From Tubiluchus corallicola (lineage: Eukaryota; Animalia; Priapulida), in assembly GCA_030141605.1 (NCBI GenBank), contig JAQGDQ010000431.1:62001-126000 (forward strand): a stretch of 64,000 nt of DNA. The letters are read 5' to 3'. Every line of letters begins with the position of its first letter. The stretch's first letter is position 1. Shown piece after piece: positions 4,801 through 63,900 of this stretch. The notes below the pieces were generated by a model. That model made no database searches. It was not told the origin of the DNA and worked only from the letters and a program-made list of their open reading frames with translations. The position numbers and the translations under genes are program-made.

Positions 4801-5286
4801 TTTCAGTTTAAACCACTCCATGCAATGTACGATTGTCTGATTTCTCACAACAGGTTTCTTGACAGCTGCTACAACGGCAGCCTTTAGAGATTCTAATAAA
4901 GGGATGGACATTGTCTGACACATGTACCATCGAATAACATCAGACAAATGTTCAATTAGGGTACCCTTAAACTTTGTCGCCTGTTTCTTTGGTAAGTTAA
5001 CGGCCTCTGACCATCCGTAGCGCCTGTCAAAAACGTAACAGGTGAACACGGGAAGTTCATCGGGATTAATGAACTCGATTAAATTTGTATGAGGAAACGG
5101 ATTATTAGCCGACGCTGAAGCAATAGCGAGCCATTCCCTTTCAGTGCTGTCTTCACTGTCGTTATTAACCTTGTTTGCTGACAAGTCTGGTGCAACTTGG
5201 TCCCTAAGTTGTTGGAGCAAGATGACCTCACGTTCAACGTCAGCAGCTGAAATCAAATCCGTAATGCTTCTTTCAGCTATGACCAT
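1825..5286 (-). CDS. Uncharacterised 1153-aa HEAT/ARM-repeat (alpha-solenoid) protein, single coding exon
   Basis: Uninterrupted 3462-nt ORF in a GC-richer island. HEAT-like signatures include LGLTDVWSAIRIAC, MLSHPQLSIRESATKVF, LTHPASTVRQAASNVF and CLGDGRWELRRMG. It also has a Ser-rich central linker and an acidic C-terminus (DSDWDSWSDSDDE). An acceptor TTTTCAG precedes the exon at 5378. Confidence 0.85.
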   Translation of the reverse strand: MVIAERSITDLISAADVEREVILLQQLRDQVAPDLSANKVNNDSEDSTEREWLAIASASANNPFPHTNLIEFINPDELPVFTCYVFDRRYGWSEAVNLPKKQATKFKGTLIEHLSDVIRWYMCQTMSIPLLESLKAAVVAAVKKPVVRNQTIVHCMEWFKLKSAPEISSEYFNLVKDILLLGLTDVWSAIRIACSSRLPAIITRFSLTQLEAIFNDLVSVCQNEASSWQSIEGSLMGINVVVRRFRWVEFDYTNTEVDTIEEESHSLPSFIQANMRTIIYPMLSHPQLSIRESATKVFSSFLSRSQFSEAFKSFKEIIWHLTRHSKIDVNMLEDDVVIEDRPHLGVYGPDFEFMDAYAAEGLFGVCVFLIKHIPSVFLLPNWPFYFSTFALYLTHPASTVRQAASNVFKFLVAKDCNNPVTLEMVLQGLISDWEPSQDCLDSTSQNPCVRRICVSRLKRKSCTNLNLSDTWEWREGRLLAYELILKYLVKNHWLYTFGYAGMTPRLASSDSTCSTIDEVASSDVSPGNSFTKRIVGSNSVSTSSYLKQSNLPRSTMMTGRLSFSSNAAAGPKNTFRSRASSVDFFNSSNSNLIRNRSLKSIGRHRSVIKEVDEDDSKRQNIAAHRATSLLERTRKLQLNASIECAADYISLFKVCETQPLPVPIWMTDFDLQDMNYMLKQILHQTIECLGDGRWELRRMGHQLLPTVVEVIRLYDISVLIELWNIHLTKSPKLLCYGACLSLKHCLAHAAKLLPLIENESSQSFQDFIMFKESGHAFIEKLTSALSLWCDNLHLILCRNECDKLSLVAAEALVLVHCYFARSLSNVKKNEQEEALFSFLEHVFIHAHQETSLAQSLSSLDESFSSPSEGFLSLTHKSGMSGDQVALQAEQNLLSSIHQYLSSFLKSCTLHNCVTILPVLTHLISVYCTEQLECRALFNSILTIVSMVGPVISTSNQSVEVIKQNCNMSLREMAFLVQQKSIDHTLLREILDTYAMLSLHTTAAKHLKPILQAVCVRLASSCSVSGSRENSDLGMLSNDIPVLQVQNSVLQSSSDEEDEGDAKDVGVDSLVLNLSSNSNSLSPHIKSPSSHDEAGMDSDWDSWSDSDDEATLMQLFSEFLGKLKECCSDEFEFSLGQMEPAQREQIRKVMEYWM

Positions 5287-5589
5287 CGTTCGTCTTTTGC
5301 CAGAATTGCCTTAAAGAAAAATTAGATGCAACTTAGAAAAGCGAACTTCTTACAGTGACACTGGGATCCATTCCATACCTGAAAACAGATAAAGAAAACA
5401 AAATGATCTAAAATCAACATTTTGTACTAATTTAGCATGCTTTGGGTCACTTTGAACTAATATTTGGTATTGGGATACATTTTTCAAGTACTGGCTCTTA
5501 GCATAGTTTTTTCAGTACATCACAAAAACAGTTAACTAGTGTTTACACAGGCAGCAAAAATCTGACTCATTACCTTTATCCTTATACCT

Positions 5590-9700: not shown

Positions 9701-10005
9701 GATGTTAAATTCGTGATATGCTATAATGTTATATTGATGACATAGATAAAATAATATTCTTACGCGATGAGGGACTCCTGCATAGTGCATACTCTTTGAG
9801 TCTTGATTTTCCGACGAAAGACGGCACTGCAGTCTATAGATTGCTTAATTTGCTGTTGTCTTTAAATGTTCACGTCGCATAATTCCTAAGCAAGAGCGGT
9901 AACAGAAAGAGCAAACAGGTGTTACTCTGTGTAGCTAAGTCGCTGTAGTGCCCATCTGTTTCGTTTAACTTCAGGAATGGCTACTTAGGATTATGATGAT
10001 ACAAC

Positions 10006-10129
10006 ATGGCTACTTCTGTTGATCGTGATTCTGGCGAAATGTCAGATATGGATACAAATGATTCCAGAAAAAGGCCTTTAGATGGAGATATTGAAACTGG
10101 TGTTTCAAAAAGGTCACATCACGGTTCAG
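10006..10129 (+). CDS. NOVA: Nova/pasilla coding exon 1 (N-terminus with NLS)
   Basis: Translates MATSVDRDSGEMSDMDTNDSRKRPLDGDIETGVSKRSHHGS-G. DSRKRPL...KR is the conserved Nova bipartite NLS. Donor CAG|GTAATT, phase 1, matches exon 2. Absent from the ORF track because it is under 60 aa. Confidence 0.9.
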
Positions 10130-16229: not shown

Positions 16230-16510
16230 AAGTTTAGTACAAGTAAGCTTGGTACAGGTAAGTTTGGCACAGGTAAGTTTGGTGCAGGTAATTTAGTACA
16301 AGTAAGTTTGGAACAGGTAATCTTGGTAGCAGGAAAATTTGGTGCTAGGAATTTTTGGTACGTGGCAGTTTTGGTAATGGTAAATTTGGTACTATCATCT
16401 TAAGGTACATGGAATTTTTGGTACTAGGAAATTTGGTACTATGGAAAGTTTGGTATATTTGGAAGATTTGATACTATGAAAGTTTGGTATGGAAAATTTG
16501 GTACTAAATG
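16230..16510. repeat. Degenerate ~15-bp tandem repeat (GGTACAGGTAAGTTT-like)
   Basis: Recurrent TTTGGTAC / CAGGTAAG units. A related motif occurs at 40495-40560. Confidence 0.65.
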
Positions 16511-18399: not shown

Positions 18400-21300
18400 A
18401 GCACTGTACATCGCATGCTCGTACATAATAGTAACCAGGCACAGTGCTTCTCTGCTAGGCACATCTACACACACTATACAAGAGACGCTCATACATATTA
18501 GCAACCAGGCACAGTGTTTCACTACCAGGCTCATCTACACGCACAAGACACGCTCGTACATGTTAGTAACCAGGCACAGTGCTTCACTACCAGTCACTTC
18601 TATACTCACCAGACACGCTCATTAATATTTGTAACCTGGCACAGTGCTTCACTACCAGTCACTTCTATATGCACCAGACACGCTCCTACATATTAGTAAC
18701 CAGGCACAGTGCTTCACTACCAGTCACTTCCATATGCACCAGACACGCTCGTACATATTAGTAACCTGGCACAGTGCTTCACTACCAGTCACTTCTATAC
18801 GCACCAGACACGCTCGTACATATTAGTAACCTGGCACAGTGCTTCACTACCAGTCACTTCTATACGCACCAAACACGCTGGTACATATTAGTAACCTGGT
18901 ACAGTGCTTCACTACCAGTCACTTCCATGTGCACTAGACACGCTCGTACATGTTAGTAACCAGGCACAGTGCTTCACTACCAGTCACTTCTATACTCACC
19001 AGACACGCTCATTAATATTTGTAACCTGGCACAGTGCTTCACTACCAGTCACTTCTATATGCACCAGACACGCTCCTACATATTAGTAACCAGGCACAGT
19101 GCTTCACTACCAGTCACTTCCATATGCACCAGACACGCTCGTACATATTAGTAACCTGGCACAGTGCTTCACTACCAGTCACTTCTATACGCACCAGACA
19201 CGCTCGTACATATTAGTAACCTGGCACAGTGCTTCACTACCAGTCACTTCTATACGCACCAAACACGCTGGTACATATTAGTAACCTGGTACAGTGCTTC
19301 ACTACCAGTCACTTCCATGTGCACTAGACACGCTCGTACATGTTAGTAACCAGGCACAGTGCTTCACTACCAGTCACTTCTATACTCACCAGACACGCTC
19401 ATTAATATTTGTAACCTGGCACAGTGCTTCACTACCAGTCACTTCTATATGCACCAGACACGCTCCTACATATTAGTAACCAGGCACAGTGCTTCACTAC
19501 CAGTCACTTCCATATGCACCAGACACGCTCGTACATATTAGTAACCTGGCACAGTGCTTCACTACCAGTCACTTCTATACGCACCAGACACGCTCGTACA
19601 TATTAGTAACCAGGTACAGTGCTTCACTACCAGTCACTTCTATATGCACCAGACATGCTGGTACATATTAGTAACCTGGTACAGTGCTTCACTACCAGTC
19701 ACTTCTATAGGCACCAGCCACGCTCGTGCATATTAGTAACCACGTACAGTGCTTCACTACCAGTCACTTCTATATGCACCAGACACGCTCGTACATGTTA
19801 GTAACCAGGTACAGTGTTTCACTACCAGTCACTTCTATACGCACCAGACATGCTCATACATATTAGTAACCACGTACAGTGTTTCACTACCAGTTACTTC
19901 TATACGCACCAGACATGCTCATACATATTAGTAACCACGTACAGTGCTTCACTACCAGTCACTTCTATATGCACCAGACATGCTCGTACAAGTTAGTAAC
20001 CAGGTACAGTGCTTCACTACCAGTCACTTCTATACGCACCAGACACGCTCGTACATATTAGTAACCTGGTACAGTGCTTCACTACCAGTCACTTCTGTAT
20101 GCACCAGACACGCTCGTACATGTTAGTAACCACGTACAGTGCTTCACTACCAGTCACTTCTATACGCACCAGACACACTCGTACATGTTAGTAACCACGT
20201 ACAGTGTTTCACTACCAGTTACTTCTATACGCACCAGACATGCTCATACATATTAGCAACCTGGTACAGTGCTTCACTACCAGTCACTTCTAAATGCACC
20301 AGACATGCTCGTACATATTAATAACCAGGTACAGTGCTTCACTACCAGTCACTTCTATACGCACCAGACACGCTCGTACATATTAGTAACCAGGTACAGT
20401 GCTTCACTACCAGTCACTTCTATACGCACCAGACACGCTCATACATATTAGTAACCAGGTACAGTGCTTCACTACCAGTCACTTCTAAATGCACCAGACA
20501 TGCTCGTACATATTAGTAACCAGGTACAGTGCTTCACTACCAGTCACTTCTAAACGCACCAGACACGCTCGTACATATTAGTAACCAGGCACAGTGCTTC
20601 ACTACCAGGCTCATCTACACGCACAAGACACGCTCGTACATATTAGTAACCAGGCACAGTGCTTCACTACCAGTCACTTCCATATGCACCAGACACGCTC
20701 GTACATATTAGTAACCAGGTACAGTGCTTCACTACTAGTCACTTCTAAATGCACTAGACATGCTCGTACATATTAGTAACCAGGTACAGTGCTTCACTAC
20801 CAGTCACTTCTAAATGCACCAGACATGCTCGTACATATTAGTAACCAGGTACAGTGCTTCACTACCAGTCACTTCTAAATGCACCAGACATGCTCGTACA
20901 TATTAGTAACCAGGTACAGTGCTTCACTACCAGTCACTTCTAAATGCACCAGACACGCTCGTACATATTAGTAACCAGGTACAGTGCTTCACTACCAGTC
21001 ACTTCTAAACGCACCAGACACGCTCGTACATATTAGTAACCAGGCACAGTGCTTCACTACCAGGCTCATCTACACGCACAAGACACGCTCGTACATATTA
21101 GTAACCAGGCACAGTGCTTCACTACCAGTCACTTCCATATGCACCAGACACGCACGTACATATTAGTAACCAGGTACAGTGCTTCACTACTAGTCACTTC
21201 TAAATGCACTAGACATGCTCGTACATATTAGTAACCAGGTACAGTGCTTCACTACCAGTCACTTCTAAATGCACCAGACATGCTCGTACATATTAGTAAC

Positions 21301-21990
21301 CAGGTACAGTGCTTCACTACCAGTCACTTCTAAATGCACCAGACACGCTCGTACATATTAGTAACGAGGCACAGTGCTTCACTACCAGTCACATCTATAT
21401 GCACCAGACACGCTCGTACATATTAGTAACCAGGTACAGTGCTTCACTACCAGTCACTTCTAAATGCACCAGACACACTCGTACATGTTAGTAACCACGT
21501 ATAGTGTTTCACTACCAGTCACTTCTATACGCACCAGACACGCTCGTACATACTAGTAACCAGGCACAGTGCTTCACTACCAGTCACTTCTATACGCACC
21601 AGACACGCTCGTACATATTAGTAACCAGGCACAGTGCTTCACTACTAGTCACTTCTAAATGCACTAGACACGCTCGTACATATTAGTAACCAGGTACAGT
21701 GCTTCACTACCAGTCACTTCTATACGCACTAGACACGCTCGTACATATTAGTAACCAGGTACAGTGCTTCACTACCAGTCACTTCTACACATAAGACACG
21801 CTCGTACATATTAGTAATCTTGCACAGTGCTTCACTACCAGTCACTTCTATACGCACCAGACACGCTCATACATATTAGTAACCAGGTACAGTGCTTCAC
21901 TACCAGTCACTTCTATACGCACCAGACACGCTCATACATATTAGTAACCAGGTACAGTGTTTCACTACCAGTCACATCTACATGCACTAC
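18400..21990. repeat. 65-bp minisatellite, about 55 copies, with higher-order repeats
   Basis: Unit GTAACCAGGYACAGTGCTTCACTACCAGTCACTTCTATACGCACCAGACACGCTCGTACATATTA. The ORF track recurs at 65-, 390- and 455-bp offsets. Confidence 0.97.
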
Positions 21991-26837: not shown

Positions 26838-27187
26838 GTACTTCCAAAGCTTCATTTCAAAGTACTTCCAAAGTTTCATTCCAAAGTACTTCCAGAGTTT
26901 CATTTCAAAGTACTTCCAAAGTTTCATTCCAAAGTACTTCCAGAGTTTCATTTCAAAGTACTTCCAAAGTTTCATTCCAAAGTACTTCCAAAGCTTCATT
27001 TCCAAGTACTTCCAAAGTTTCATTCCAAAGTACTTCCAGAGTTTCATTTCAAAGTACTTCCAAAGTTTCATTTCAAAGTACTTCCAAAGTTTCATTTCCA
27101 AGTACTTCCAGAGTTTCATTTCAAAGTACTTCCAAAGTTTCATTTCAAAGTACTTCCAAAGTTTCATTTCAAATTACTTCCAAAGTT
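26838..27187. repeat. 21-bp minisatellite, about 16 copies
   Basis: Unit AAAGTACTTCCAAAGTTTCATTYC-like; produces 7-aa periodic ORFs on both strands. Confidence 0.95.
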
Positions 27188-28599
27188 TTTGTGTAATTTT
27201 AAAGCGTTGTTTGTGATGTATACACGTCAAATAAAATGCTGTCTTCTGGCAGCTAGTCTTCATAACTTGAATTTGTCTGATAACTCTTAATAGATTTAGT
27301 TCACCTGGAGTTCATTTACAGATACATCTCTTCCCTTGATCCTTGTCAGTTTAATCCCAGTGGTTTTCCTTCTGATCTTACAGGCTTGCTATACAGGGAT
27401 TCGGTTTCCTCTTCAAATCCGAAGAGAAGGTAACTTACTAGGTAAAGTTTGAAATTGGTATCTGCTGCTTCTGCTTATGCACATAGCCCTGGTGGCCTGG
27501 TCCAGACAATCGCTGTTGGAGCAGTAGGAAAGGATAGAATCTTATTTGCATCGTAAATTTACTCTGTGTGAACATTGGTGCTTCATAACCTCAGTAACGC
27601 TTCTCAGAAGTACGTTTCTACCAGCTTAAGTTGGCTTAACAGATTCTCTTTTGAAATATCTCTTCGTGTTAAAACTAAGCTGGCTGCCTGTCACTGTGTA
27701 GTAAGAACTTTACTCCCCTGTTCTCAGGGACGTCTTAGGGTCATGTTAGTTAAATTCAATCTTTTCCATTACGTGTTGTGGAGGTCCACATTTTGATGAT
27801 ACTTGACTAACTCGAGTATGGGATTCAATTCATATGTTGTTTATTGTGTACTATGATTGTTTTCACAAAATGTGATCATGACATATAGTTCGGTGTGTAC
27901 TTGTATGCAAACCAGATTTCTGGAGTAATATTATCAGCAGCAGCAGCAGCAAACTCTAGTACACATGTTTCTCTGTTCCACAGCTTCTCATACATAACAA
28001 GCATTTTTTCCTTAGTCTTTTGAACTTTCAATAGACAAGCTTATATTCTTGCGGTTATGGAGTCAGAGTCAAGTCAGACTTACCAGACGGTTATCATCAC
28101 CACTTGTGAATCATTCTCGCCACTGATGTTCTAATTTCCGTTCTAATGTTCTTAATGACCGTTAATTAAGTTTTTTATCTATTATTTAGTTATAAGAAAA
28201 CCTTTTGCAGTATTAACTGTGTTAAAATTTATATTTTTACGGTACTTGAAAATGGGGGGGGGAGCATATGAAAAATTATGTTGTCTTCCTTTAACAGTAT
28301 TTGGTGTAATTCAGAAATTCTAAATTTGTTGAATATCGTTACCAGCATGTTTTTTTGCCAACAAAAATTTCTCTTGAAACCTTTCTGTTTTTAAACAAGC
28401 CTTTCCAAGTTGAGTGACTATGTTGGAAGTCGTTGAAATGTGTTGTTTTTCAGCAAGTGTGTGACGTATTGGGTACATGTTGTGGAATATTTTATGTACC
28501 GTCAAGTTGTGAATCTTTGGTGGTCGGATAATCTTATCATATGCATATTAAACCGTAAAACACTTTGAAAAGCTGTTACTCTGTCAGCCATATGGTAAT

Positions 28600-41609: not shown

Positions 41610-43108
41610 ATACAAGTTTACCATGCTGTTACATCTGAACATGTTTCACCCTCAACCAATACTTTCTGAGGGTACACAAGTTTACCATCCTCTTACATCT
41701 GAACATGTTTCACCCTCAACCAATACTTCATGAGGGTGCACAAGTTTACCATCCTCTTACATCTGAACATGTTTCACCCTCAACCAATACTTCCAAAGGG
41801 TACACAAGTTTACCATCCTCTTACGTTTGAACATGTTTCATCCTCAACCAATACTTTCTGAGGGTACACAAGTTTACCATCCTCTTACATCTAAACATGT
41901 TTCACCCTCAACCAATACTTTCTGAGGGTACACAAGTTTACCATCCTCTTACATCTGAACATGTTTCACCCTCAACCAATACTTCCAAAGGGTACACAAG
42001 TTTACCATCCTCTTACATCTGAACATGTTTCACCCTCAACCGATACTTTCTGAGGGTACACAAGTTTACCATCCTCTTACATCTGAACATGTTTCACCCT
42101 CAACCAATACTTTCTGAGGGTACACAAGTTTACCATCCTCTTACATCTGAACATGTTTCACCCTCAACTGATACTTCCTGAGGGTACACAAGTTTACCAT
42201 CCTCTTACATCTGAACATGTTTCACCATCAACCTATACTCCCTGAGGGTACACAAGTTTACCATCCTCTTACATCTGAACATGTTTCACCCTCAACCGAT
42301 ACTTCCAAAGGGTACACAAGTTTACCATCCTCTTACATCTGAACATGTTTCACCCTCAACCGATACTTTCTGAGGGTACACAAGTTTACCATCCTCTTAC
42401 ATCTGAACATGTTTCACCCTCAACCGATACTTTCTGAGGGTACACAAGTTTACCATCCTCTTACCTCTGACCATGTTTCACCCTCAACCGATACTTCTTG
42501 GGGCTACACAAGTTTACCATCCTCTTACATCTGAACATGTTTCACCCTCAACCTATACTTCCTGAGGGTACACAAGTTTACCATCCTCTTACGTTTGAAC
42601 ATGTTTCACCCTCAACCTATACTTCTTGAGGGTACACAAGTTTACCATCCTCTTACATCTGAACATGTTTCACTTTCAACCGATACTTCATGAGGGTACA
42701 CAAGTTTACCATCCTCTTACATCTGACCATGTTTCACCCTCAACCTATACTTCCAAAGGGTACACAAGTTTACCATCCTCTTACGTTTGAACATGTTTCA
42801 CCCTCAACCTATACTTCCTGAGGGTACACAAGTTTACCATCCTCTTACATCTGAACATGTTTCACCCTCAACCTATACTTCCTGAGGGTACACAAGTTTA
42901 CCATCCTCTTACATCTGAACATGTTTCACCCTCAACTGATACTTCCTGAGGGTACACAAGTTTCACATCCTCCTATATCTGACCATGTTTCACCCTCAAC
43001 CGATACTTCCAAAGGGTACACAAGTTTACCATCCTCATACATCTGAACTTGTTTCACCCTTAACCGATACTTCCAAAGGGTACACAAGTTTACCATCCTT
43101 TAACATCT
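41610..43108. repeat. 64-bp minisatellite, about 23 copies
   Basis: Unit GGGTACACAAGTTTACCATCCTCTTACATCTGAACATGTTTCACCCTCAACCRATACTTYCTGA; units start at 41670, 41734, 41798 and onward. Confidence 0.97.
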
Positions 43109-44284
43109 TTTAATGTTTTCCTTCTTTGGCCTTTACTTTCTGAGGGTTTAATCTAAATTTTGTGAACCTGTTGCAGCTGGCTAGAACTAGGGAAGTTTCC
43201 CCTGGACAGCGGCTGATTAACAACACGGCGGTTGTTGAATGTTTACATCATGTAATACGGTCTGGCACAAGAAGCGAATCGTCGAGCAAGTAGCACCCTT
43301 GATCTGTCATTCAGCACTCTATTTCGTCAAAAATATGGCTTCAAATACAATCAAGGTCACACCTAGCAGACATGCCTTTCATCTGTAAGCATACGCTTCT
43401 GATAATTTCTTCTACTGGACGCTGATGACAGATTGAGGTGGCTTCCCCTTTGACTTAGAGCAGCCTTGCCCTTCTGTAAACATACAGTCATTGGAAGGGA
43501 ACTGCTATAAATATATACAACTCTTAACTGACTTCATATACAAACATTTAGTGTGTCTGTGTTTGGAAAGTGTGTTCTTTTTTATCAGCTTCTGTGTTAC
43601 ATACAAGTGGGTGTTTGGGCTGATGGTGCTGCTTGGTTTTCACTAATCTATCACTAATGTCGATATTAGATTTCAATAAAATAAACAGTTCTTGTTTAAT
43701 GGCAAAATCCTTTCTGTTACGGTCTTTCTTTTTTTTCTTGTAAACTTGATTGATTCCACAAGCGTTCTTTACTCCAAGGCTGGGATTTTGACAAAACTCT
43801 CGGATAAAATCACTGTTATTTACGAGAGTACATTCCACTAATTTACAGCATGTTAACAGTGGCTTAGTGATGACTTACTGATTAACTTAACAAAGTCGTT
43901 ACTGTTTAAGTACCAACGTAAGGTTTAAACATGCTTTTACTCCCAAAATCTTGAGGCCCGATGAGATTGTACCCAGGGCTGGATTACCCTATAGGCTAAT
44001 ATAGGCTACAGCCTAGGGCCCCTCAAGCTTGGAGCGCGCATACTTTGCTTTGTTGCCTTTAAAAAAGGATTTGACATCCCATTTTAAAGTGGCCTCTAAT
44101 TTGAGATAAGTGATATCTGAATCGTGGAAAACGAATTTTTAATATAAAATGATTCCCAGCAGCCGCTTAAGCAAACACGACTTCTATTCAGATACAAACA
44201 TTTGCAACGTTTTGACCCACCGTATGTCATGATCACGCTTTATTGATTTATTTTTTATAAATGATCTCTAATTGAAGCCCTTTG

Positions 44285-44698
44285 TCAGTCGCACATTGTC
44301 ATTGACACATTGTTGCTCACACATTGTCACTCATGCATTGTCACGCACATTTATCACTGACACACTGTCGCTCACACATTGTCACTCATACATTTGTTGC
44401 TCACGCATTGTCACTCATGCATTGTCACGCACATTTATAACTGACTCACTGTCGCTCACACATTGTCACTCATACATTTGTTACTCACGCATTGTCACTC
44501 ATGCATTGTCACACACATTTATCACTGACTCATTGTCACTCGTGCATTTTTTGCTCACGCATTGTCATGCACATCACTAACACACTGTCGCTCACACATT
44601 GTCACTCATACATTATCATTCACACACTTGTCACTCGTGCATTTGTTACTCACACATTTTCACTCACAATCACACTGTTTAAAGTGTGACACTCACTC
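44285..44698 (+). promoter_or_regulatory. YCAY-dense intronic element upstream of Nova exon 2 (candidate Nova-binding splicing silencer)
   Basis: Hand count of about 38 TCAC/TCAT motifs in about 415 nt. No AG dinucleotide occurs between 44289 and 44682. A branch-point-like CACTAAC sits at about 44575. The tract ends about 55 nt before the acceptor. Confidence 0.6.
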
Positions 44699-44753
44699 AA
44701 GTAAAACAAGTGGGAAAATGGCGATTACGTGACTACGTGTAATTTATTTCCAG

Positions 44754-44903
44754 GGTATGAAGGGGCCAACTATCACTTCAAGATTCTTGTGCCCAGCGTG
44801 GCTAGTGGCGCCATCATTGGGAAAGGAGGAGAGACGATAGCACAGTTACAAAAAGATTCTGGCACAAAAATAAAAATGTCAAAAGCAAGTGATTTCTATC
44901 CAG
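44754..44903 (+). CDS. NOVA: Nova coding exon 2 (N-terminal part of KH1)
   Basis: TTTCCAG| then GYEGANYHFKILVPSVASGAIIGKGGETIAQLQKDSGTKIKMSKASDFYPG, then |GTAAGT. 150 nt, phase 1-1, with the Nova-diagnostic SK..DFYPG motif. Confidence 0.95.
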
Positions 44904-44991
44904 GTAAGTGAACCTGCTGTGTTTGAGTGCTATTAATAATCTACAATAACACAAAACTTTAGAATCAAACTGGTGTTTAGGCTGTGTTCAG

Positions 44992-46185
44992 TTAAAGGAC
45001 AAGAAAAGGGGTACCTGAAGTAGGTTTCAGAAAAATCGTTTTAAAAAATTATACTATTTTACAGCAATTTTATGCATATATCGTACTCGCATTGAAAGGA
45101 ACTTTTGTTCGCTTTCATTTTAAATCTCTCGCAATATTGTTCCGACCGCGCAATTACCGTATTTTCCCATGTATAAGAGACCCTTTTTTGCTCAGAATTT
45201 TCACTTTAAAAATAGGGGGTCTCTTATACATTTGAGTAAGTCTTTTCAATAAGATGCATAAATTGTGACACTAATTGTGCAGCTGGGTCCTCAAGGCATG
45301 GAATGGTGTAAAGCCAGAGGTCATTATTAAATCTTTCAAGAAGTGTGGCATCTCCAATGCCATGGACGGCACAGAGGACAATGCCATTTTTGAGCAGAGT
45401 GACTCCTCTGATGATGAACTGGCTGGAATTGCTGAAGGTCTGACTCCAGTTGATATTTTTGATGAGAGTGATGAGGAATTTAATGATTTCTATGATGAAT
45501 AAAGTTATTCATTACCAAAAAACTTTTTTCCAGAATTTTTGCCTAAAATTGAAGGGGTCTCTTATACATGGGAAAATACGGTAGATGACGTCAATTATGC
45601 AAACGTACATCAAACGAGAAGAAAAGTAAATATTAAATTATGTCCCAAAAAACTTTCCATGCAAATCTATCTTACTTAGCGCTTCGCTTATCTGCTGGAA
45701 AGACTTACGTAACTAGAAATAATAATTTAAAATTTTCGTGCCAATTGGTAAAATGTCCCTGACTCACCCTGCAGGGTGCACCACTCACTAACCAAAAACG
45801 TATTTTTAATCTTATTGACAAGATACAGTAACTCAAAAGTTAACTCAGTTAGTAACATGTGTGCTACAAATGCGCCGATTTTTTTTTCAAACTTGACGCA
45901 ATGACATCTAAACTTGTTTCAAATGACGTCTTTAAAATGGCTGCGTCTAATGGTCATCACGGGAGTTTAAATTTACAAGTTTTATACAGCGTTACTGCCG
46001 ACGCAAGCCCTGTATGCAAAAAGGCAATATGTAAGTCAGTCATCGCAGGAGTTTAAATTTACAAGTTTTATACAGCGTTACTGCCTACGCAAGCCCTGTA
46101 TGCAAAAAGGCAATATATAAGTGGTATAAAATTTCAAGAGGATTTTTTTAAGCTTGATGTAAGTGGAGGGTTTTTTGTGCTTTAA
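44992..46185. mobile_element. Kolobok-like MITE family C copy interrupted by a pogo element
   Basis: Same termini as 35489-36150; small internal tandem duplication at about 45960-46120. Confidence 0.75.
45157..45581 (+). mobile_element. Deletion derivative of a pogo/Tigger DNA transposon
   Basis: Perfect TIR CCGTATTTTCCCATGTATAAGAGACCC with TA on both sides. The internal ORF WVLKAWNGVKPEVIIKSFKKCGISNAMDGTED plus an acidic tail matches a pogo transposase C-terminus. Confidence 0.88.
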
Positions 46186-47652: not shown

Positions 47653-47807
47653 GTACAACAGAACGGATATGTCTTATAGTTGGTTCGGTAGAGTCCATCA
47701 TGCAGGTTCACTGTTTCATAATGGAGAAGATTCGAGAGAAGCCAGATCCGAATGCGAAGCCGGCTATGGATTACGATCACAAATTCGCTGCAGAAAGAGA
47801 TAAACAA
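47653..47807 (+). CDS. NOVA: Nova coding exon 3 (end of KH1 and the KH1-KH2 linker)
   Basis: CTTGTAG| then (G)TTERICLIVGSVESIMQVHCFIMEKIREKPDPNAKPAMDYDHKFAAERDKQ, then |GTACTG. Phase 1-0; continues DFYPG-TTER as in Nova proteins. Missing from the ORF track. Confidence 0.93.
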
Positions 47808-49604: not shown

Positions 49605-50415
49605 CATGACGTCGTAGTCATCTGAGTGCTGCTATGCTCTAAAAGCATGGCATGTCCCACCTGTTGATGCCACGCATTCCTGTCCACCCCCATTGCCCAC
49701 GATGCATCATCCCTCAAATCTAAAGTTGTATATTTACTATCAGTATATCTATATACATCAGTAGCTGACCTCCTCTTGGCTTTTTTGTCTTTTCAAGAGT
49801 TTTGCGTAATGCTATAGGAAGAGGAGACTCTTGAGCTAATCTTAGTGCATGCCCAATCTAATGCAATCTTCTTACTTGTATTTGTTTACTCCAAGGATTC
49901 TTCTTGACCACATCATACAGATCATCATTGGATATTCTGTCAGACTATTTAATCTTAGTGCATACCCAATCCAATGCAATCTTCTTATTTGTATTTGTTT
50001 ACTCCAAGGATTCTTCTTGACCACATCATACAGATCATCATTGGATATTCTGTCAGACTATTTAATCTTAGTGCATACCCAATCCAATGCAATCTTCTTA
50101 TTTGTATTTGTTTACTCCAAGGATTCTTCTTGACCACATCATACAGATCATCATTGGATATTCTGTCAGACTATTTAATCTTAGTGCATACCCAATCCAA
50201 TGCAATCTTCTTACTTGTATTTGTTTACTCCAAGGATTCTTCTTGACCACATCATACAGATCATCATTGGATATTCTGTCAGACTATTTAATCTTAGTGC
50301 ATACCCAATCCAATGCAATCTTCTTACTTGTATTTGTATACTCCAAGGATTCTTCTTGACCACATCACACAGATCATCATTGGATATTCTGTCGGGTGAT
50401 TTAATTGCCTGTAAC
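49605..50415 (-). mobile_element. 5'-truncated RTE-clade LINE with an internal 113-bp tandem amplification
   Basis: Minus-strand frame: IKSPDRISNDDL...KKNPWSKQIQVRRLHWIG(H/Y)ALRLAQESPLPIALRKTLEKTKKPRGGQ...DRNAW. Confidence 0.75.
49838..50393. repeat. 113-bp tandem repeat, about 5 near-identical copies
   Basis: ORF offsets 49974/50087/50200; the unit starts TAATCTTAGTGCATACCCAATCC. Confidence 0.95.
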
Positions 50416-51060: not shown

Positions 51061-52128
51061 GTGAAAATTTTGGTTCCAAATTCGACGGCAGGGATGATCA
51101 TAGGCAAGGGTGGTTCGTACATCAAACAGATCAAAGAAGAGACCGGTACATTTGTACAAATATCCCAAAAGGCGAAGGACCAACAGCTAACAGAGCGGTG
51201 CATAACCGTCATAGGCGAAGCGGAGCAGTTGCAGTTGGCGTGCCGTATGATACTCGGAAAAATTGCTGATGATCCGCAGAGTAACAGCTGTCCCAACGTG
51301 AGTTACAGCGATTTCACGGGTCCGGTAGCAAACGTAAACCCGTCAGGATCACCATACGCTCACACACATTCCAACATCGGAGCACTGCAGAATGTTGCCC
51401 CCGCACTGAGCCAAGCCAATGCAATCAGCAACGGTTTAGCCAACACGCTAAGCGGAATTGCGACTAGCTTGCCGATACAGCAGTCGAGTTCCGCCCTGTT
51501 TGAACAGATTCAGACCACGCTGAGAAACAGTGGCTTCTCTGAGCAGGCCACGGCTGAAATTACCGTCGCGATGAATACGTTAGCTACTTACGGAATACTA
51601 GCAATCGGACTCAATGGCCTGCAGGCATTAACAAGCGGCCAGGCCAATAATAACAACAGTTTACTCAGTGCTAACTACACTAATAGTAGTGTATTTGGAC
51701 CGGTTGGCAGCTCAAGCGGAATGGGAAGTCCTGGGCGAAACGAGTTAGCTAGGTACACTGTAGGCGATGCCACGACTGCAACTGTAGCGACAAGTCATTC
51801 GTTTAACGGTCACAACAGCGCAGCACAAAATTCGGGTAAGCGTAGTCCGGACAAGGATGCGTCCAAGGTTGACCTAGAAATTAATGATAACATCGTCGGT
51901 GCTATCCTGGGTCCCGGCGGGCGCACCCTGGTGGAGATTCAACAGTTCAGCGGAGCTAACATTCAGATCAGTAAGAAGGGAATTTATGCACCGGGAACTC
52001 AGAACCGCGTGGTGACCATTACAGGTGACGCCACGCAGATACAACGGGCGCAATTTCTTATGCACCAAAAAATATCAAACGAGGAGGCTAAAAGGATGAA
52101 ACAAGGGAGTGGCAGTGTATCACACTAG
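51061..52128 (+). CDS. NOVA: Nova coding exon 4 (KH2, long spacer, KH3, stop)
   Basis: TTTTGTTTACAG| then VKILVPNSTAGMIIGKGG, KIADDPQSNSCPNVSYSDFTGPVANVNPSGSPYA, EITVAMNTLATYGIL and IVGAILGPGGRTLVEIQQFSGANIQISKKGIYAPGTQNRVVTITG, all Nova/pasilla hallmarks. Confidence 0.97.
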   Translation: MKILVPNSTAGMIIGKGGSYIKQIKEETGTFVQISQKAKDQQLTERCITVIGEAEQLQLACRMILGKIADDPQSNSCPNVSYSDFTGPVANVNPSGSPYAHTHSNIGALQNVAPALSQANAISNGLANTLSGIATSLPIQQSSSALFEQIQTTLRNSGFSEQATAEITVAMNTLATYGILAIGLNGLQALTSGQANNNNSLLSANYTNSSVFGPVGSSSGMGSPGRNELARYTVGDATTATVATSHSFNGHNSAAQNSGKRSPDKDASKVDLEINDNIVGAILGPGGRTLVEIQQFSGANIQISKKGIYAPGTQNRVVTITGDATQIQRAQFLMHQKISNEEAKRMKQGSGSVSH

Positions 52129-54221
52129 TGTCACCATGTACAGAATTCATTCAATCATTGCGCACTATACATGAACTTGTAAGAATATGTCGCCACATCT
52201 CATTTTAGAAAAAAGAGAGTCGACCGATTTCACTGTAAATTTCGATGAAAATTTTAGGTGTACAGAAGATGATATTCCCTCGCCGGTGTTGTTGCAAATG
52301 ACTAGTTAGACGAAGATATGAGATTCGAAGAATTGTTGTCCCGAAATGCTACATCTGTAAATGCGCTTACTAAACATTTTGGTAGTTTTTTTCCGCAGTA
52401 AATTTTAGTTCAAATGTCAAGATTTAGCACGAAGCGAAGACTTATTCAAGTGGATAAACGACCATTTTTATTCGAACTGTGCTTCAAGGCCGAGTGCATT
52501 CATTTTGAGTATCCATGTGTAACTGTGGCATGTTTGATGGGTATTTGGAAATATCCAACTTACAAGGAAATTCAACCTGCTGTATTTTCCTTTTTTCACT
52601 CAATGCTGGAAAGCCTGCTAAAGCTTCCTGGGGAAAGGAGGCTCGGTGTCCGGAGCTTTTGTGAAACGTGTTTTTGGACAACGATGATTGTTGTGTTGTA
52701 TTTTTGGTTTTCTTAAACTGCAATTTGTTTTGTTTTGCTAATCAGTGAGACTACCGTGCCGTACAGTACTTACCGCACAAGTCTTACAAGCGCATTATGT
52801 CACATTCCGCATTTTCTGCACGTTTGCTGGGTGAACTAGGGATAAAATTAGCTGTGTACTCTCAGCTGCAGCTAATAAATTCACGTCACCGCTTCATCAT
52901 GTCAGCTGCTATCATTTTCATTTGTGCACGAGCAAATTGGCATTCTTCCAAATCGGAGCACGCTTCACTTTCGCATTCAGACGCATGCACACAATGAGTG
53001 TCCTCATATTTCACAGGAAGACACTTATCAGATCTTCATTTAAACACTCGTGTGTTCGATAAGTTGAAAAAAAATTTGATTTTATTGATTTTAACTAAGT
53101 AATTTTAGTTCTCAAGATGAATGTTTGTAACTCAGTAAGACGTCTTAAAATCGTAGTGATCGCTAAACTAATTTTGTGTTCACCTTTTAACATTCTGCTG
53201 TAATATTCAATGTTTGTGAATTTTTGTTTGCCTGCTGTTGCTTATCATTAGTGAAGTTTTCATTTTTATACTCAGTTTATTTCATTCATGCTGTTTTATG
53301 TTTTCATTTCATACTTTTGCAAATTAGGCTTTTGCATATTTTTTCCGGTGTGTTAATTACACTCATTTTCTCCACATGTATGAATACATCTAAAATGTTT
53401 TATTGGGTCGCTTTGGTGTTGTGAAAGCATAGTTCTCGGTATCGTGTTGTATATCATATCTATATATCCTGTTGTATATACTTAGCATATTGTCTTAGTT
53501 AATTGTATTATATAATCAGTTCTAACTAATGGACTCAAATACGCCGGTAGTTCTTGGTCAATTTTAAACTCCCATTAGATTTTACAGAACAAGTAGAGAA
53601 TGTACTAAGATGTTAAAAATTAGGATCGTTCCCTCCTGTCAAGTATTTGTATAGATTCACTGAAATCACTTCTCGTTTAGACAAAAGCTTGCAATAACTG
53701 TAAGGTACCATTCCGCGATTCATTCATTTACATCATTCTAGCAGATCACGTCATTTTTTGACCAGAGCGGTTTCATAATGACGTGTTTCCAGAGTGTGTC
53801 AACATGCCACATGGTAAAATCAACTATTGACTTTACGAGCATCAATGCATAGAACAGGGCAGTGCTAGAAACTTGAATGAACATGTAAAAATCTGTAAAA
53901 CACAAAGCACTTCTTCTATTAATGGCAATCATTAGCAATGGAGGTGGAGTAATTTACATGGATTCGTTCATGCATCATCGTCATGGTCATCGTCCGAACC
54001 ACATTCACCGTCTGGCAGTCTTGCTTTTTGTTGATCGTGTAATTTATTTCCTGCTGCTGAGGTACATGATTTGACACTTCTAAGCTTTTCAAACTTCAGA
54101 CTTATTAGTTCTAGTGCATCATACTTGTTATTAGTCTGTATATCTGTTTTTTGTTCTTCAAAGATATAATTATGTTCAATAACATATATGGTGTTAGTTT
54201 GTTTTTTGTGCAGTGCAGTTT

Positions 54222-59252: not shown

Positions 59253-59372
59253 TATTGTTACCGAAGTTTCGTTACAAAGCCGAATCGTATTACCGGGATT
59301 CGACTGTAATATTCAGATGACAGGTAAAGAAAGACAAAACGCACACTAGTCACAATGCAAAAATGTATTTAC

Positions 59373-59533
59373 TCTGACAAAGCCTTGGGATCTTTCTGCA
59401 TTTGTTCTAGGATGAGCCTCATTGCCGGGTCCGCAAGGATACTCTGGATTTCTGGATCAGCCATGGCTCTCTTTCTCACCTCTTCCGGGTCGTTTGACGT
59501 CATCATGCAATTTCTGTACCCATCCAGCGCTTC
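59373..59533 (-). CDS. STIP1: STIP1/Hop exon (DP2/STI1 domain)
   Basis: [53 protein letters not shown](E); AAG| acceptor and |GTAAAT donor; phases match the neighbouring exons. Confidence 0.95.
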
Positions 59534-60439
59534 CTTTTAACACAAATTAATATAATTATATGTAAGTTTATTTATCATTACAGTGAACCAAACAGTTGAA
59601 TTACAGTACAGCATAAAATTACAATGAAAAAAAATTTAAAAGAATGAAACAAGGCAGAACACACAGCAACAAGCATTATTACACTGTTACAATATACATG
59701 AACTGCAGTACAGTAGGCAGCATTTGTTAGACTGTCATCTTCACTTTGACTGTGCACTACAATAAACATAGAAACAGTCATGTTAGGTACAACATTGTTT
59801 GTAAGTACATACAGTATGTTTATCATATGCACTAAAATGTTAGGATAGCGGTTTTGCTTGGAATCTGTCGCCCGCTTATGCGCTGCAATTAACCTCGTTG
59901 TTTCTGGAAGTTAAACATTTAAGTACTTGCCCAGGGGTTTGCTTTTGAAACCTGCTGCTTTTCACTACAGCCCAAGCACCATGTGACTAAGTGTCTTACG
60001 TGAACATGTGCATCATACAGCAACAGATTTTAAAAAAATCCAAAAAAATCCCAAAAACCTGATTATTAAAAATTACAAAAATTTGAGCAAGGTCTGTAAT
60101 TTTTAATTTTTGTAATTTTTAATAATCAGATTTTTGGGATTTTTTTATTAATACTCCTAATAAATTACATAGTTATTAATTAATAACGAAATATAATTAC
60201 GAAAATAATTAACAAATTTCGCCAATAATTTCACATAGGTATTTTTGCCATTAATTCGTCTCTAAAATTCATTTAAAGCCTTTGCAATGCATTCTAATGT
60301 GATGAGTGATCACTCATACTTCTATAGTAGTAATATACTAAATTCTGATCAAAGAGACATTTTACATCCGGCATCAGCATCCGAACCTAAACAGCAGAAT
60401 GGAGCGTTATAGCTGCAAATGACTTTATTTTAACTGTAT

Positions 60440-61492
60440 CAGACATGGCTGGCAGACTTGGCTCATGGATGACAAATACACAATACAAGCACCAGACTTG
60501 GCGGGCGGATGAGAAATACACAATACAAGTATCAGACTTGACTCGTGGATGACAAATACAAGTACCAGACTTGGCTTGTGGATGACAAATTCACAATACA
60601 AGTACCAGACTTGGTTGGCAGATGACAAATACACAATACAACTACTAAACTTGGCTGGGGGATGACAAATACACAATACAAGTACCAGACTTGGCTGGCA
60701 GATGACAAATACACAATATAAGTACCAGACTAGGCTGGTGGATGACAAATACACAATACAAGTACCAGACTTGGCTGGCGGATGACAAATACACAATACA
60801 ACTACTAGACTAGGCTGGGGGATGACAAATACACAATACAAGTACCAGACTTGGCTAATGGATGACAAATACACAATACAAGTACCAGACTTGGCTAATG
60901 GATGACGAATACACAATACAAGTACCAGACTTGGCTGGGGTGTGGTGTTGGTGGGGTGTGTTGGTTGTGGTGGTGTTGTCAGACTTGGCGATGGATGACA
61001 AATACACAATACAAGAACCAGACTTGGCTAATGGATGCCAAATACACAATACAAGTACCAGACTTGGTTGGCGGATGACAAATATGCATTACAACTGCCA
61101 GACGTGGCTGGCAGAAGACAAATACACAATACAAGTATCAGACTTGGCTAATGGATGACAAATACACAATACAAGAACCAGACTTGGCTAATGGATGACA
61201 AATACACAATACAAGAACCAGACTTGGCTAATGGATGACAAATACACAATACAAGAACCAGACTTGGCTAATGGATGACAAATATGCATTACAACTGCCA
61301 GACTTGGCTGGCGGATGACAAATACATAATACAAGAACCAGACTTGGCTAATGGATGATAAATACAAAATACAACTGCCAGACTTGGCTGGCGGATGACA
61401 AATATGCAATACAACTGCCAGACTTGACTGGTGGATGACAAATACACAATACAAGAACCAGACTTGGCTAATGGATGACAAATACACAATAC
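60440..61492. repeat. 40-bp minisatellite, roughly 25 copies, beginning at a STIP1 splice donor
   Basis: Plus-strand unit GACAAATACACAATACAAGTACCAGACTTGGCTRRYGGAT, interrupted by a GT-rich insert at about 60938-60978. Confidence 0.95.
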
Positions 61493-61596
61493 CTGACACT
61501 TTGGATCCAATTCTAAAGCTTTCTGATACGTTTTTCCTGCTTCGCTCATATTCTTCATTGCTATGAGGATACCACCTTTCCGAAGATAAGCTTTCA
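61493..61596 (-). CDS. STIP1: STIP1/Hop exon (third repeat of TPR2B)
   Basis: TTCTTTCTAG| then (V)KAYLRKGGILIAMKNMSEAGKTYQKALELDPKCQ, then |GTATTG. Confidence 0.93.
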
Positions 61597-61870
61597 CTAG
61601 AAAGAACAATCATTAAAAATGAATGCAAATACATTATTCTTCCAAAATTTATGCACTGTTATCTAAACTTGTTTCAAATGACTTTCATTAGCGTTACTAC
61701 TAACGCAAGCACAGTTTGCAATAAGACAGTATGTAAATGATGCAAAATTTGAAGACAAATTTTTTAGGTTTTATTTATGAAGAATGTTTCTTGGGCTCCA
61801 ATGCACAGCTTGCTAATTTGACTCTAGGAAAACTTTCTTACAAAGTTTTATTTTTACCTCATTTAGTAAA

Positions 61871-62312
61871 CTCATATCTCAATTTGCCGGACAAAAGTGG
61901 GGAGACGTCGGTCCGAATTTGTTGATTGTCCATATTTACCAATACTAACTAAGCTAATACAGTAGGCTCCGTTTATTAGACTCACTGTAATGTAGAATCA
62001 ATAGCCTAATTGTCTCAAAAACGTCTAGTGCGGGCCGCTCCTATGCAAAAGTATATAAACTGTCGGCAATTGACTCAAATAACTCTGCATAATTGAATCT
62101 GAACAACTTACACATGCTGACATACAAGCTACACACATGTCGTTACATGCTGGTTGGCTACACTGATGTAATGATGTAAACAAAGTGGCGACCTGCCAAC
62201 TAGTAGTTATCTCGCGAAAAAGCGGACTGTGTTCATAATATGCGGGACTTTTACCGGTTCAGATTTTTCCAATATCCACAACATCGAAGTCCAGCAAACC
62301 GAGATAAGAGTG
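61871..62312. mobile_element. MITE family D, near-full copy
   Basis: CTCATATCTCAATTTG ... AAACCGAGATAAGAGTG-TA. Confidence 0.65.
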
Positions 62313-63214
62313 TAAATAGCAAATGAATGACTAGTCTAAACTCATACATTTTGTAGAAGGGATGTCATGAATCTGAAATTACAAAATCCGAAGCAAAACT
62401 GAATCTCGTTTTATGATAATTTTTGAATCTGAATCTCAGTTTAAAATAACTTCGAATACGGATGAAATCCAAATCTCAATTTCAAATAATTTTCGAAACA
62501 GATTCGAATCTCAATTTTTAGGTACTTTTTTAAACCGAATCTTATTCGAGCACCTTTACCTGCGCTCGGCGAAAAAAACTGTGTTCATCCAAGCCAGGAC
62601 GCATGCAGCGTTGTGTTAAGCAATACAAGAAATCTTAGCATTTTTGTTGAAACTAGCAGCTCAAATCGTAATGTGGTGCATGTTTTCGTGCAGGATTTCA
62701 TGAGTTGGACACTTAAACTGATATTTGTATATTTCAAGTAGGACAAAATTATCAAAAAAATGCGGGTATTGGGTAATTTTGCGAAAAATTTAAAGGCAAA
62801 AGTTTGTATAATTGATTTTGTAATAAAGTGCTACCATCACACTTCTGCAGTTGAAGAAAAACTTTATTTTTTAAAAAAATCGCTGCTGAATCAGGTCAGA
62901 TCTAAAATAACTAAGAACATCAGCAAATCAAGTTGAATCAAAGCTAAGAATCGGATTGGGTTTGGTTTAAACATGATTTATTGAACGTGTAACATCTAGG
63001 TTTGAAACAGACAGTTTTACAACTGATATATGTTCTCCCCTTAGTGGGAGCGAAAAATTGGATTTGAGGCTCAAGTTCTGCAGGAGTTTCCTAACATTCC
63101 TAACGTGACGACCTAATGACCACTAACAAATATTAATATTTTTGTCATTTCAGGTCTTATACTGAAATTTTGAAAATGTCTCCACAGCACACATTTCATC
63201 CGAATGTAACATAC

Positions 63215-63376
63215 CAAAGTCTTGGTCTAATTCAATGGCTTTGTTGCAGTCTTTCAAGCCGAGTCCAAACTCCGCTAACTTGGTGTAAGCTGCCGCACGG
63301 TTGCTGTACAATTTGGCATCTTCAGGATTCCGCCGGATTGCTTCCGTGTAAAATTTAACAGCAGCTGGATAGTCGC
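63215..63376 (-). CDS. STIP1: STIP1/Hop exon (TPR2B)
   Basis: TTACAG| then (G)[53 protein letters not shown], then |GTATGT. Confidence 0.96.
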
Positions 63377-63900
63377 CTGTAATTAAAGTTATACTGGCAT
63401 CTATTAGCTCGACACGTTTTTAACGTAGATAGCAGCACACAAGGAATAAATCTCACTGTGAACGGTATATATCAAAGAATTTCATTGCCACAATAAAAAG
63501 ATTTTTAAGCAGGTAATAGTAGCTACTAGCGACATAATAAAATTAACGTACTACAGAGAGTTTTGTTACAAGCCAAATTGTATTACCGGGTTTCGACTTT
63601 GTCTAGTTATGAGAACAACATAAAAAAGAAAAAGAAATAACACAGCTAAAAACTTCAATTCCAAAGTTTACAAATCAAGTTAATTATTTTTGCTTTCTTG
63701 ATTTGACTAAAACGACCTATTGGACGAAAGTGTGGCTGATTTCGCTTCAATGGACAAGTGTCACTGTGTTTAAAAACATGATCATACTACTAAAACGGCC
63801 TATATTTTCAATCAGACACTGGCAAGTGTACTGTAGCACTTCTAAATTATAACAAACATTTCAACTAAACCATCAACTGGTCAGTCAATAGGACGTTTAC

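What the first reader, a model, noticed from the sequence alone, without database searches (positions are those of the whole stretch)
44285..44903. Candidate Nova autoregulatory switch: about 38 YCAY motifs directly upstream of the symmetric KH1 exon
Seen: about 415 nt of TCAC/TCAT-rich degenerate repeat, AG-free for nearly 400 nt, containing branch-point-like CACTAAC and CTGAC motifs and ending about 55 nt from an acceptor with a short pyrimidine tract. Exon 2 is 150 nt and phase 1-1, so skipping it is in frame and deletes the KH1 GKGG loop. Established: Nova binds YCAY clusters, binding upstream of an exon represses it, and vertebrate Nova1 autoregulates a different exon through YCAY elements. 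Inference: an independently evolved negative-feedback loop that yields a KH1-less Nova or stalls intron 1 removal.
Basis: partly seen in the sequence, partly recalled or inferred. Interest (0 to 1): 0.85.

Follow-up and report, generated by a model that had tools for sequence, protein, structure and literature searches.

The report
Nova-motif minisatellite inside Nova's own intron
A 400-base tandem repeat carrying 38 copies of the binding word of the splicing protein Nova lies just before the first RNA-binding exon of an invertebrate's own Nova gene; it is likely a young chance repeat that Nova would bind, and nothing yet shows that it makes the gene regulate itself.

Summary
The sequence claims hold: 38 YCAY (all TCAY), the window's longest AG-free stretch, and a 150-nt phase 1-1 exon carrying the KH1 GKGG loop of a Nova gene, probably from a priapulid-like animal. 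The 200 nt before the acceptor score as a strong Nova cluster (1.38; 4 of 638 tiles), and chance placement is about 0.5-5% per gene.

The tract is, however, a 14-bp minisatellite with an 84-bp higher-order repeat, one of many arrays in this intron. Its mutations do not spare YCAY (7 of 14 destroy one) or avoid AG. The last 57 nt before the acceptor hold no YCAY, and three AGs separate the CACTAAC from that acceptor. The exon is also symmetric in 7 of 7 orthologous loci, and none of 9 has a tract. None of 155 NLS-bearing relatives skips KH1; relatives instead vary the exon joined upstream.

Best reading: a neutral repeat that Nova likely binds (0.55). If it is functional, it more likely tunes intron-1 or upstream-exon choice (0.25) than KH1 skipping (0.12). 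No RNA test was possible. The scan noted a YCAY cluster in octopus Nova at a different position.

The parts
44284..44676 (+). 14-bp minisatellite (consensus GTCACTCACACATT), about 28 units, with an 84-bp higher-order repeat in its first three blocks; 37 of the 38 YCAY
   Evidence: TRF; unit registration; YCAY positions
44575..44581 (+). CACTAAC, a branch-point-like variant of one repeat unit, about 175 nt from the exon-2 acceptor with three AGs between
44683..44710 (+). three upstream AAG dinucleotides (AG at 44683, 44700, 44709); each would add a premature stop if used as the acceptor (use not shown); last YCAY at 44693
   Evidence: in-silico translation
44711..44753 (+). 43-nt AG-free zone and acceptor (TTTATTTCCAG) of exon 2; likely branch point GTGAC near -22 (inferred)
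44754..44903 (+). Nova exon 2, 150 nt, phase 1-1; encodes the KH1 N-terminal part with the GKGG loop; consensus donor CAG|GTAAGT
9975..10129 (+). upstream exon with the start codon (10006) and an RKRP NLS-like motif; preceded by an acceptor-like pyrimidine tract and CAG, so it may be internal (inferred)
47653..47807 (+). Nova exon 3 (155 nt, phase 1-0): end of KH1 and linker; holds a small exonic YCAY cluster (score 1.0)
51061..52128 (+). Nova last coding exon, KH2 and KH3, to the stop codon

Best explanation
The tract is a 14-bp tandem repeat in intron 1 of a Nova gene that likely arose recently by ordinary repeat expansion and happens to carry up to two TCAY words per unit; Nova would likely bind it on the unspliced RNA, but exon 2 likely stays included and no self-regulating switch has been selected. 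Shown: the repeat structure, motif count, position, gene identity, mutation spectrum and absence at orthologous positions. Inferred: young age (from 87-96% identity between higher-order copies), CpG-type decay as a source of the CA/TG variants, Nova binding, and constitutive inclusion.
For: Repeat context: TRF finds a period-14 array with an 84-bp higher-order repeat, in a window holding 46 TRF rows, several of them kilobase arrays in the same intron. Higher-order copies are 60-66 of 69 identical. Mutation spectrum over 23 registered units: 7 of 14 distinct changes destroy a YCAY, against about 5 expected from class frequencies. Mismatch rate is 0.17 in YCAY columns and 0.14 elsewhere. The two YCAY-forming CA sites are intact in 14 and 15 of 23 units, while the CA that is not part of YCAY is intact in 23 of 23. 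One AG gain is seen, against about 1 expected. Two of the three variable sites show the full CA/CG/TG/TA set (the third CA/CG/GA/AA), in an intron with CpG o/e 0.73. Comparably dense YCAY runs occur on the antisense strand of the same intron (33 per 400 nt at 16828). The array in the neighbouring STI1/HOP gene is also YCAY-rich on its own sense strand (41 per kb). Orthologues: no tract before the KH1 exon in 9 of 9 genomic loci, about 6 independent gene lineages (6-17 YCAY against 38; scores 0-0.78). 0 of 155 NLS-bearing relatives lack the KH1 loop. The tract folds less stably than 99 of 100 shuffles, so it is likely accessible.
Against: Position is the main counter-evidence. The 200 nt before the acceptor hold 14 YCAY and score 1.38 by the Jelen 2007 formula (threshold 0.6; log base 10 assumed). 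Only 4 of 638 tiles reach that score, and every other intronic flank of the gene scores 0. Random placement of such a tract next to a splice site of this gene has a chance of only about 0.5-5%. Jelen 2007 (sections 6 and 9 read) says clusters within 200 nt predict regulation, that Nova-regulated exons have ordinary splice-site strength, and that regulation can evolve directly on constitutive exons. With 38 copies, selection per motif would be weak, so the mutation test has low power (14 events, related units). No orthologous locus comes from a close relative. Nova1 self-regulation is known in mammals (PMC1877881, passages).
Confidence: 0.55

Rival explanations
1. The repeat has been co-opted as a Nova-responsive element at the 3' end of intron 1, but it would act on how intron 1 is resolved rather than on KH1 skipping. 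Nova binding would slow use of the 44754 acceptor (retention, or a shift to an upstream AAG that adds a stop), or would set which upstream exon joins it (the NLS/start exon or an alternative first exon), changing the amount of nuclear Nova.
For: In relatives, variation at this junction is almost all in the upstream partner: 105 of 290 proteins keep the KH1 loop without the NLS motif (some are partial or diverged), and 3 start at the internal Met of the KH1 exon. Ciona Nova has two first exons, one without an NLS (PMC12445529, passages). The NLS exon here has an acceptor-like 5' edge, and exon 2 has an in-frame ATG at 44876. A Nova site near the branch point of the downstream intron is an enhancer position for an upstream exon, and Nova's effect is confined to the intron holding the site (PMC3165201, passages). 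ExOrthist Table S1 marks an 811-nt fly exon as REGULATED on pasilla knock-down, clustered with two mouse exons; reading these IDs as ps, Nova1 and Nova2 first coding exons is recalled. All three upstream AAG acceptors would give premature stops.
Against: No alternative first or cassette exon was found in intron 1: tblastn of relatives' N-termini gave only low-complexity or 6-residue hits, and a crude consensus scan gave no open in-frame candidate. The upstream acceptors are weak AAGs. A knock-down can distort inclusion values for its own gene. The array shows no selection signature.
Confidence: 0.25
2. One reading: Nova bound upstream would silence exon 2, joining 10129 to 47653 in frame and giving a KH1-less, possibly dominant-negative Nova as negative feedback.
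For: The exon is symmetric and carries the GKGG loop. [quoted passage not shown] FOX1 has TGCATG sites around a skipped exon that encodes part of its RNA-binding domain (PMC1877881, passages). Ciona Nova needs KH1 for Agrin splicing (PMC12445529).
Against: 0 of 155 NLS-bearing homologues show the skip; this set favours complete proteins and holds one priapulid. Symmetry is ancestral (7 of 7 loci). There is no YCAY in the last 57 nt and only 3 scattered ones in the exon (score 0), whereas the mammalian Nova1 element needs exonic sites (PMC1877881, passages).
Confidence: 0.12
3. The tract would act as a CA-rich element for another protein (hnRNP L-type or IGF2BP/Imp-type; these specificities are recalled), or as a distal branch-point platform, independent of Nova.
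For: 83 CA dinucleotides and 42 RCAY against 38 YCAY in the tract; the best-kept CA is in ACAT/GCAT context. CACTAAC lies within a 394-nt AG-free zone.
Against: The AG-free state follows from the unit sequence (1 gain seen, about 1 expected). A distal branch point would meet three other AGs before the real acceptor. No binding data exist.
Confidence: 0.08

Closest known systems
Mammalian Nova1 exon E4 autoregulation (Dredge et al. 2005; paper not held; described in PMC1877881, passages read)
   Same: YCAY cluster in Nova's own pre-mRNA next to an internal exon
   Different: There the sites lie in the exon and extend downstream, the intronic part alone is insufficient, and the flanks are highly conserved. 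Here the sites are only upstream, form a lineage-specific tandem repeat, precede the KH1 exon, and no alternative splicing is shown.
Nova/Pasilla RNA map, NISS2 and NISE3 clusters (PMC3165201 passages; PMC2014790 sections 6 and 9 and passages)
   Same: A dense YCAY cluster within 200 nt upstream of a 3' splice site; score 1.38 against a 0.6 cut-off
   Different: The same position reads as a silencer of the downstream exon or an enhancer of an upstream one, depending on which exon is alternative, which is unknown here. The map uses conserved clusters; this one is not seen in orthologues.
FOX1/FOX2 (Rbfox) autoregulated RRM exon (PMC1877881, passages)
   Different: Rbfox sites overlap both splice sites and are conserved from human to Xenopus; neither holds here.
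Intronic minisatellites with higher-order structure (general class, recalled)
   Same: 14-bp unit, 84-bp higher-order period, transition-dominated decay, low copy elsewhere, repeat-rich intron
   Different: Unusually rich in the host protein's own motif and close to an acceptor.

Membership tests
Nova/Pasilla gene family (host gene) | Three KH domains, best matches to Nova/Pasilla | tested here: met
   Pfam KH_1 once in exon 2 and twice in the last exon; top hits are Pasilla/Nova at about 50% identity; PDB Nova-1 and Nova-2 are the top hits; the KH3 GPGG loop is shared with 216 of 235 scored relatives
Nova-regulated splicing element (Nova RNA map) | YCAY cluster score of 0.6 or more within 200 nt of a splice site | tested here: met
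   score 1.38, 14 YCAY at -200 to -61
Nova-regulated splicing element (Nova RNA map) | Motifs single-stranded and accessible | tested here: inconclusive
   Predicted only: the region folds less stably than 99 of 100 shuffles and the centroid is largely unpaired
Nova-regulated splicing element (Nova RNA map) | Cluster conserved at the orthologous position | tested here: inconclusive
   Absent in 9 of 9 distant orthologous loci; no genomic DNA from a close relative was available
Nova-regulated splicing element (Nova RNA map) | Adjacent exon is alternatively spliced | tested here: inconclusive
   No usable RNA for this species; 0 of 155 NLS-bearing homologues show the skip
Nova-regulated splicing element (Nova RNA map) | Nova binds, and splicing depends on Nova and on YCAY | not testable with these tools
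   needs CLIP/EMSA and a minigene
Nova1 E4-type autoregulation | YCAY sites inside the regulated exon, extending downstream | tested here: not met
   Exon 2 and its downstream 200 nt both score 0
Distal-branch-point intron with long AG exclusion zone | AG-free stretch runs from the branch point to the used acceptor | tested here: not met
   AGs at 44683, 44700 and 44709 intervene; the acceptor's own zone is 43 nt
Minisatellite | Head-to-tail units of about 10-60 bp with mutual similarity | tested here: met
   period 14 x 27.9 and period 84 x 3.0 at 92%; units registered
High-copy dispersed repeat | Many similar copies elsewhere in the genome | tested here: not met
   No second copy in the window (best blastn E 0.25). 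In DNA run X1, at 90% likeness, summed contig depth is 21 over 44006-44506 against more than 10,000 over the neighbouring element at 45008-46009. Depth is no true copy number, and diverged copies would be missed.

The most novel reading that the evidence does not exclude
A young minisatellite built from Nova's own binding word has been captured as a tunable autoregulatory element: array length would set how strongly Nova damps or redirects splicing of its own first intron (KH1 skipping, retention, a poison upstream acceptor, or choice of the NLS exon). With the octopus leader cluster (scan note, unchecked) and mammalian exon E4, this would mean that Nova feedback was re-invented at different gene positions in several phyla.
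Probability: 0.35. Interest if true: 0.65.

Novelty: new member of a known kind. Interest (0 to 1): 0.33.

Why it matters
Splicing-factor autoregulation is common and is known for mammalian Nova1, so one more cluster is not surprising in itself. It would matter if functional, for two reasons. It would show a feedback loop being created from a tandem repeat, with repeat number as a dial. It would also give a compact, testable case of convergent Nova self-control outside vertebrates, which my 10 literature searches did not find described (most subscription papers are not searchable). If neutral, it is a useful caution: in repeat-rich genomes, motif-dense tracts land near splice sites by chance in roughly one gene in 20 to 200.

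Tried and rejected
No whole genome is held, so there was no genome-wide repeat census.

RNA: no RNA holder was listed. Run X1 behaves as DNA and may be the source sample. Run X2, a guessed RNA run with about 92% identity in coding parts, gave a 159-nt contig over exon 3 but no cover of exon 2 or the tract, and no Nova splice joint, at 90% or 80% likeness. A filter drops human-like records, so this hole is no evidence either way. One X1 contig differs at 44446 within a TCAC; this may be an allele or a mis-laid sister unit.

Other searches: Rfam gave only 3 sub-threshold chance hits over 43500-45500. The exon-1 peptide found no homologue. Searches for a hidden alternative exon in intron 1 found nothing credible. 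YCAY-rich 5' leaders in two mite-like transcripts (L006, 19 against 14.1 in shuffles, 9 of 300; L008, 17 against 13.6, 32 of 300) are largely compositional, and 3 of 5 transcript leaders show nothing, so a general leader rule was not adopted. Of 80 metagenome loci, the top 16 were inspected and 14 scored; L013 and L016 were dropped, and L017-L080 were taken as non-Nova KH proteins from their low identity. The automatic unit alignment mis-registered some units and was replaced by fixed registration of 23 regular units; short or irregular units were left out. The tree is the quick version; the careful search did not finish. Scan look-ups by place and by sequence found no look-alike.

Papers: Dredge 2005 and Irimia 2011 are not held and are cited only through other papers. 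Searches listed no paper describing a YCAY repeat before the KH1 exon or invertebrate Nova autoregulation; I saw listings for all and passages for eight papers.

Full report
Gene. The window holds a Nova/Pasilla gene on the + strand: start codon 10006, exon 1 ending at 10129, exon 2 at 44754-44903, exon 3 at 47653-47807, and a last coding exon at 51061-52128. Pfam, homologue and PDB searches agree. No close relative is in the protein database. A quick tree of 35 rows puts it beside Priapulus with support 88, unstarred and on long branches. Unreviewed scan notes on the same genome also call the animal priapulid-like. Its neighbours are a 1161-codon open frame with a weak HEAT match and an STI1/HOP gene, both on the - strand.

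Observation. It is confirmed: 38 YCAY in 44285-44700, all TCAC or TCAT; an AG gap of 396, the longest in the window; CACTAAC at 44575; and a 150-nt phase 1-1 exon with the GKGG loop. This is the densest sense-strand YCAY stretch, 38 per 400 nt against 19 for the next. With the cluster formula of Jelen 2007 (PMC2014790, section 9 read; log base 10 assumed), the 200 nt before the acceptor score 1.38 against a 0.6 cut-off. 84 of 638 tiles pass 0.6, 4 of 638 reach 1.38, and all other intronic flanks of the gene score 0. The RNA is predicted to be weakly structured.

What it is. TRF resolves a 14-bp minisatellite of about 28 units with an 84-bp higher-order period; three registered higher-order copies match at 60-66 of 69 positions, which suggests recent expansion. 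The intron carries several other arrays, two of them 1.5 and 3.6 kb long. The tract has no second copy in the window. In the one DNA run it does not behave like the high-copy element beside it: summed depth 21 against more than 10,000 at 90% likeness, which is not a true copy number.

Is YCAY being kept? Over 23 regular units there are 14 distinct column changes. Seven destroy a YCAY, against about 5 expected from the possible transitions (4 of 14) and transversions (14 of 28). The YCAY-forming CA sites are intact in 14 and 15 of 23 units, while the CA outside YCAY is intact in 23 of 23. One change creates an AG, against about 1 expected. The variable sites show CA, CG, TG and TA, which looks like CpG decay, in an intron with CpG o/e 0.73. 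So both the YCAY density and the AG gap follow from the unit sequence. The test is weak, since there are few events, the units are related and the sites are redundant.

How unlikely is the position? Other tracts of similar density exist in the window, on the antisense strand (28 per 200 nt at 16906, 15 at 31899). Taking 2-5 such tracts per 128 kb of strand and a target of 100-200 nt at six splice sites gives about 0.5-5% per gene. That is suggestive, but a scan of many animal Nova genes would meet such a case by chance.

Splice anatomy. The last YCAY ends 57 nt before the exon; there are 4 YCAY at -100 to -61 and 10 at -200 to -101. Three AAGs lie between the CACTAAC and the real acceptor, whose own AG-free zone is 43 nt, so the branch point is more likely near -22 (inferred). 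Using any of those AAGs would add a premature stop. The exon-2 donor is full consensus, but Jelen 2007 (discussion, part 1 read) notes that Nova targets have ordinary splice-site strength, so this does not argue against regulation.

Relatives, DNA. A metagenome scan with a KH1-exon alignment gave 9 genomic Nova loci from about 6 gene lineages, insect-, mite- and mollusc-like by sequence. None has a tract before the exon: 6-17 YCAY against 38, scores 0-0.78, longest AG gap 58-122. The exon length is a multiple of three in 7 of 7 loci measured, so symmetry is ancestral and no sign of a switch. None of these loci is a close relative.

Relatives, protein. Among 290 proteins, 155 have the NLS-like motif and all 155 keep the KH1 loop. 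105 keep the loop without that motif (alternative N-termini, partial or diverged), 3 start at the internal Met of the KH1 exon, and 27 are fragments or N-terminally incomplete models. Other common isoforms lack KH3 or add a short exon before KH1. The sample favours complete proteins, listed at most 15 members per cluster, and holds one priapulid. Still, what varies at this acceptor in relatives is the upstream partner, as in Ciona, where an alternative first exon drops the NLS (PMC12445529, passages). Here the NLS exon has an acceptor-like 5' edge at 9974|9975, and exon 2 has an in-frame ATG at 44876. On the Nova map, a site near the end of an intron can enhance the exon upstream, and Nova acts on the intron that holds the site (PMC3165201, passages). 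ExOrthist Table S1 (two supplement look-ups) marks an 811-nt fly exon as regulated on pasilla knock-down, clustered with two mouse exons. That these are the ps, Nova1 and Nova2 first coding exons rests on recalled identifiers, and a knock-down can distort its own gene's values.

Known systems. Mammalian Nova1 autoregulation uses sites in exon E4 that extend downstream, in highly conserved flanks, and the intronic sites alone are insufficient (PMC1877881, passages; the original paper was not held). This tract fails that layout. The conserved Nova/Pasilla mechanism across animals is taken from PMC3245913 and PMC8379844 (passages). PMC4930328 and PMC11836289 (passages) added nothing. Ten searches listed no description of this element. 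An unchecked scan note reports a YCAY cluster in the leader of octopus Nova, a different position.

Verdict. The feature is real and is a strong candidate Nova-binding tract. The most likely account is a young minisatellite whose motif content is a by-product, bound by Nova with little effect on an ancestrally constitutive exon (0.55). If it has been co-opted, tuning of intron-1 resolution or upstream-exon choice (0.25) fits relatives better than KH1 skipping (0.12); another CA-binding protein or a distal branch point is least likely (0.08). No step about splicing outcome is shown: RNA from this species is the missing test. Interest 0.33; 0.65 if any autoregulatory function is shown (probability about 0.35).

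Noticed in passing
window 9955-9975: The exon with the Nova start codon and NLS-like motif is preceded by a pyrimidine tract and CAG, so it may be an internal exon after an unseen non-coding leader.
   Followed up: partly
window 47695-47720: Exon 3 (155 nt, frame-shifting if skipped) holds a small exonic YCAY cluster scoring 1.0, partly dictated by the codons for Ile-Met, His and Phe-Ile.
   Followed up: no
window 52129-54200: The presumed Nova 3' UTR has 51 sense against 30 antisense YCAY, with several small clusters (52120-52160, 52881-52900, 53708-53735, 53968-53990). The intron background is 14 per kb on both strands.
   Followed up: partly
window 18417-21987, 26838-27188, 41612-43108, 49837-50393, 60453-61492: Most longer-period arrays carry their YCAY-rich face on the host gene's sense strand (36-41 per kb against 0-2), in Nova introns and also in the STI1/HOP intron; non-array intron DNA shows no such bias (465 against 464).
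   Followed up: partly
window 1825-5310 (-): A single 1161-codon open frame with only a sub-threshold HEAT match, head-to-head with Nova.
   Followed up: no
window 59372-63419 (-): Exons of an STI1/HOP co-chaperone gene (TPR and DP domains); a 40-bp array starts right at one of its exon ends near 61492.
   Followed up: partly
window 16230-16506: A 15-bp array in intron 1 whose units repeat consensus donor words (CAGGTAAGT at 16258 and 16273), a possible source of cryptic exons.
   Followed up: no
L006:1-315, L008:1-256, L010:1000-1500: Mite-like Nova transcripts and a locus have YCAY-rich 5' leaders (60-66 per kb in the two transcripts), only slightly above dinucleotide shuffles.
   Followed up: partly
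proteins P0123, P0126, P0128, P0205 and others: Many hymenopteran Pasilla models of 377-436 residues lack the KH3 loop motif, a recurrent C-terminal isoform.
   Followed up: no
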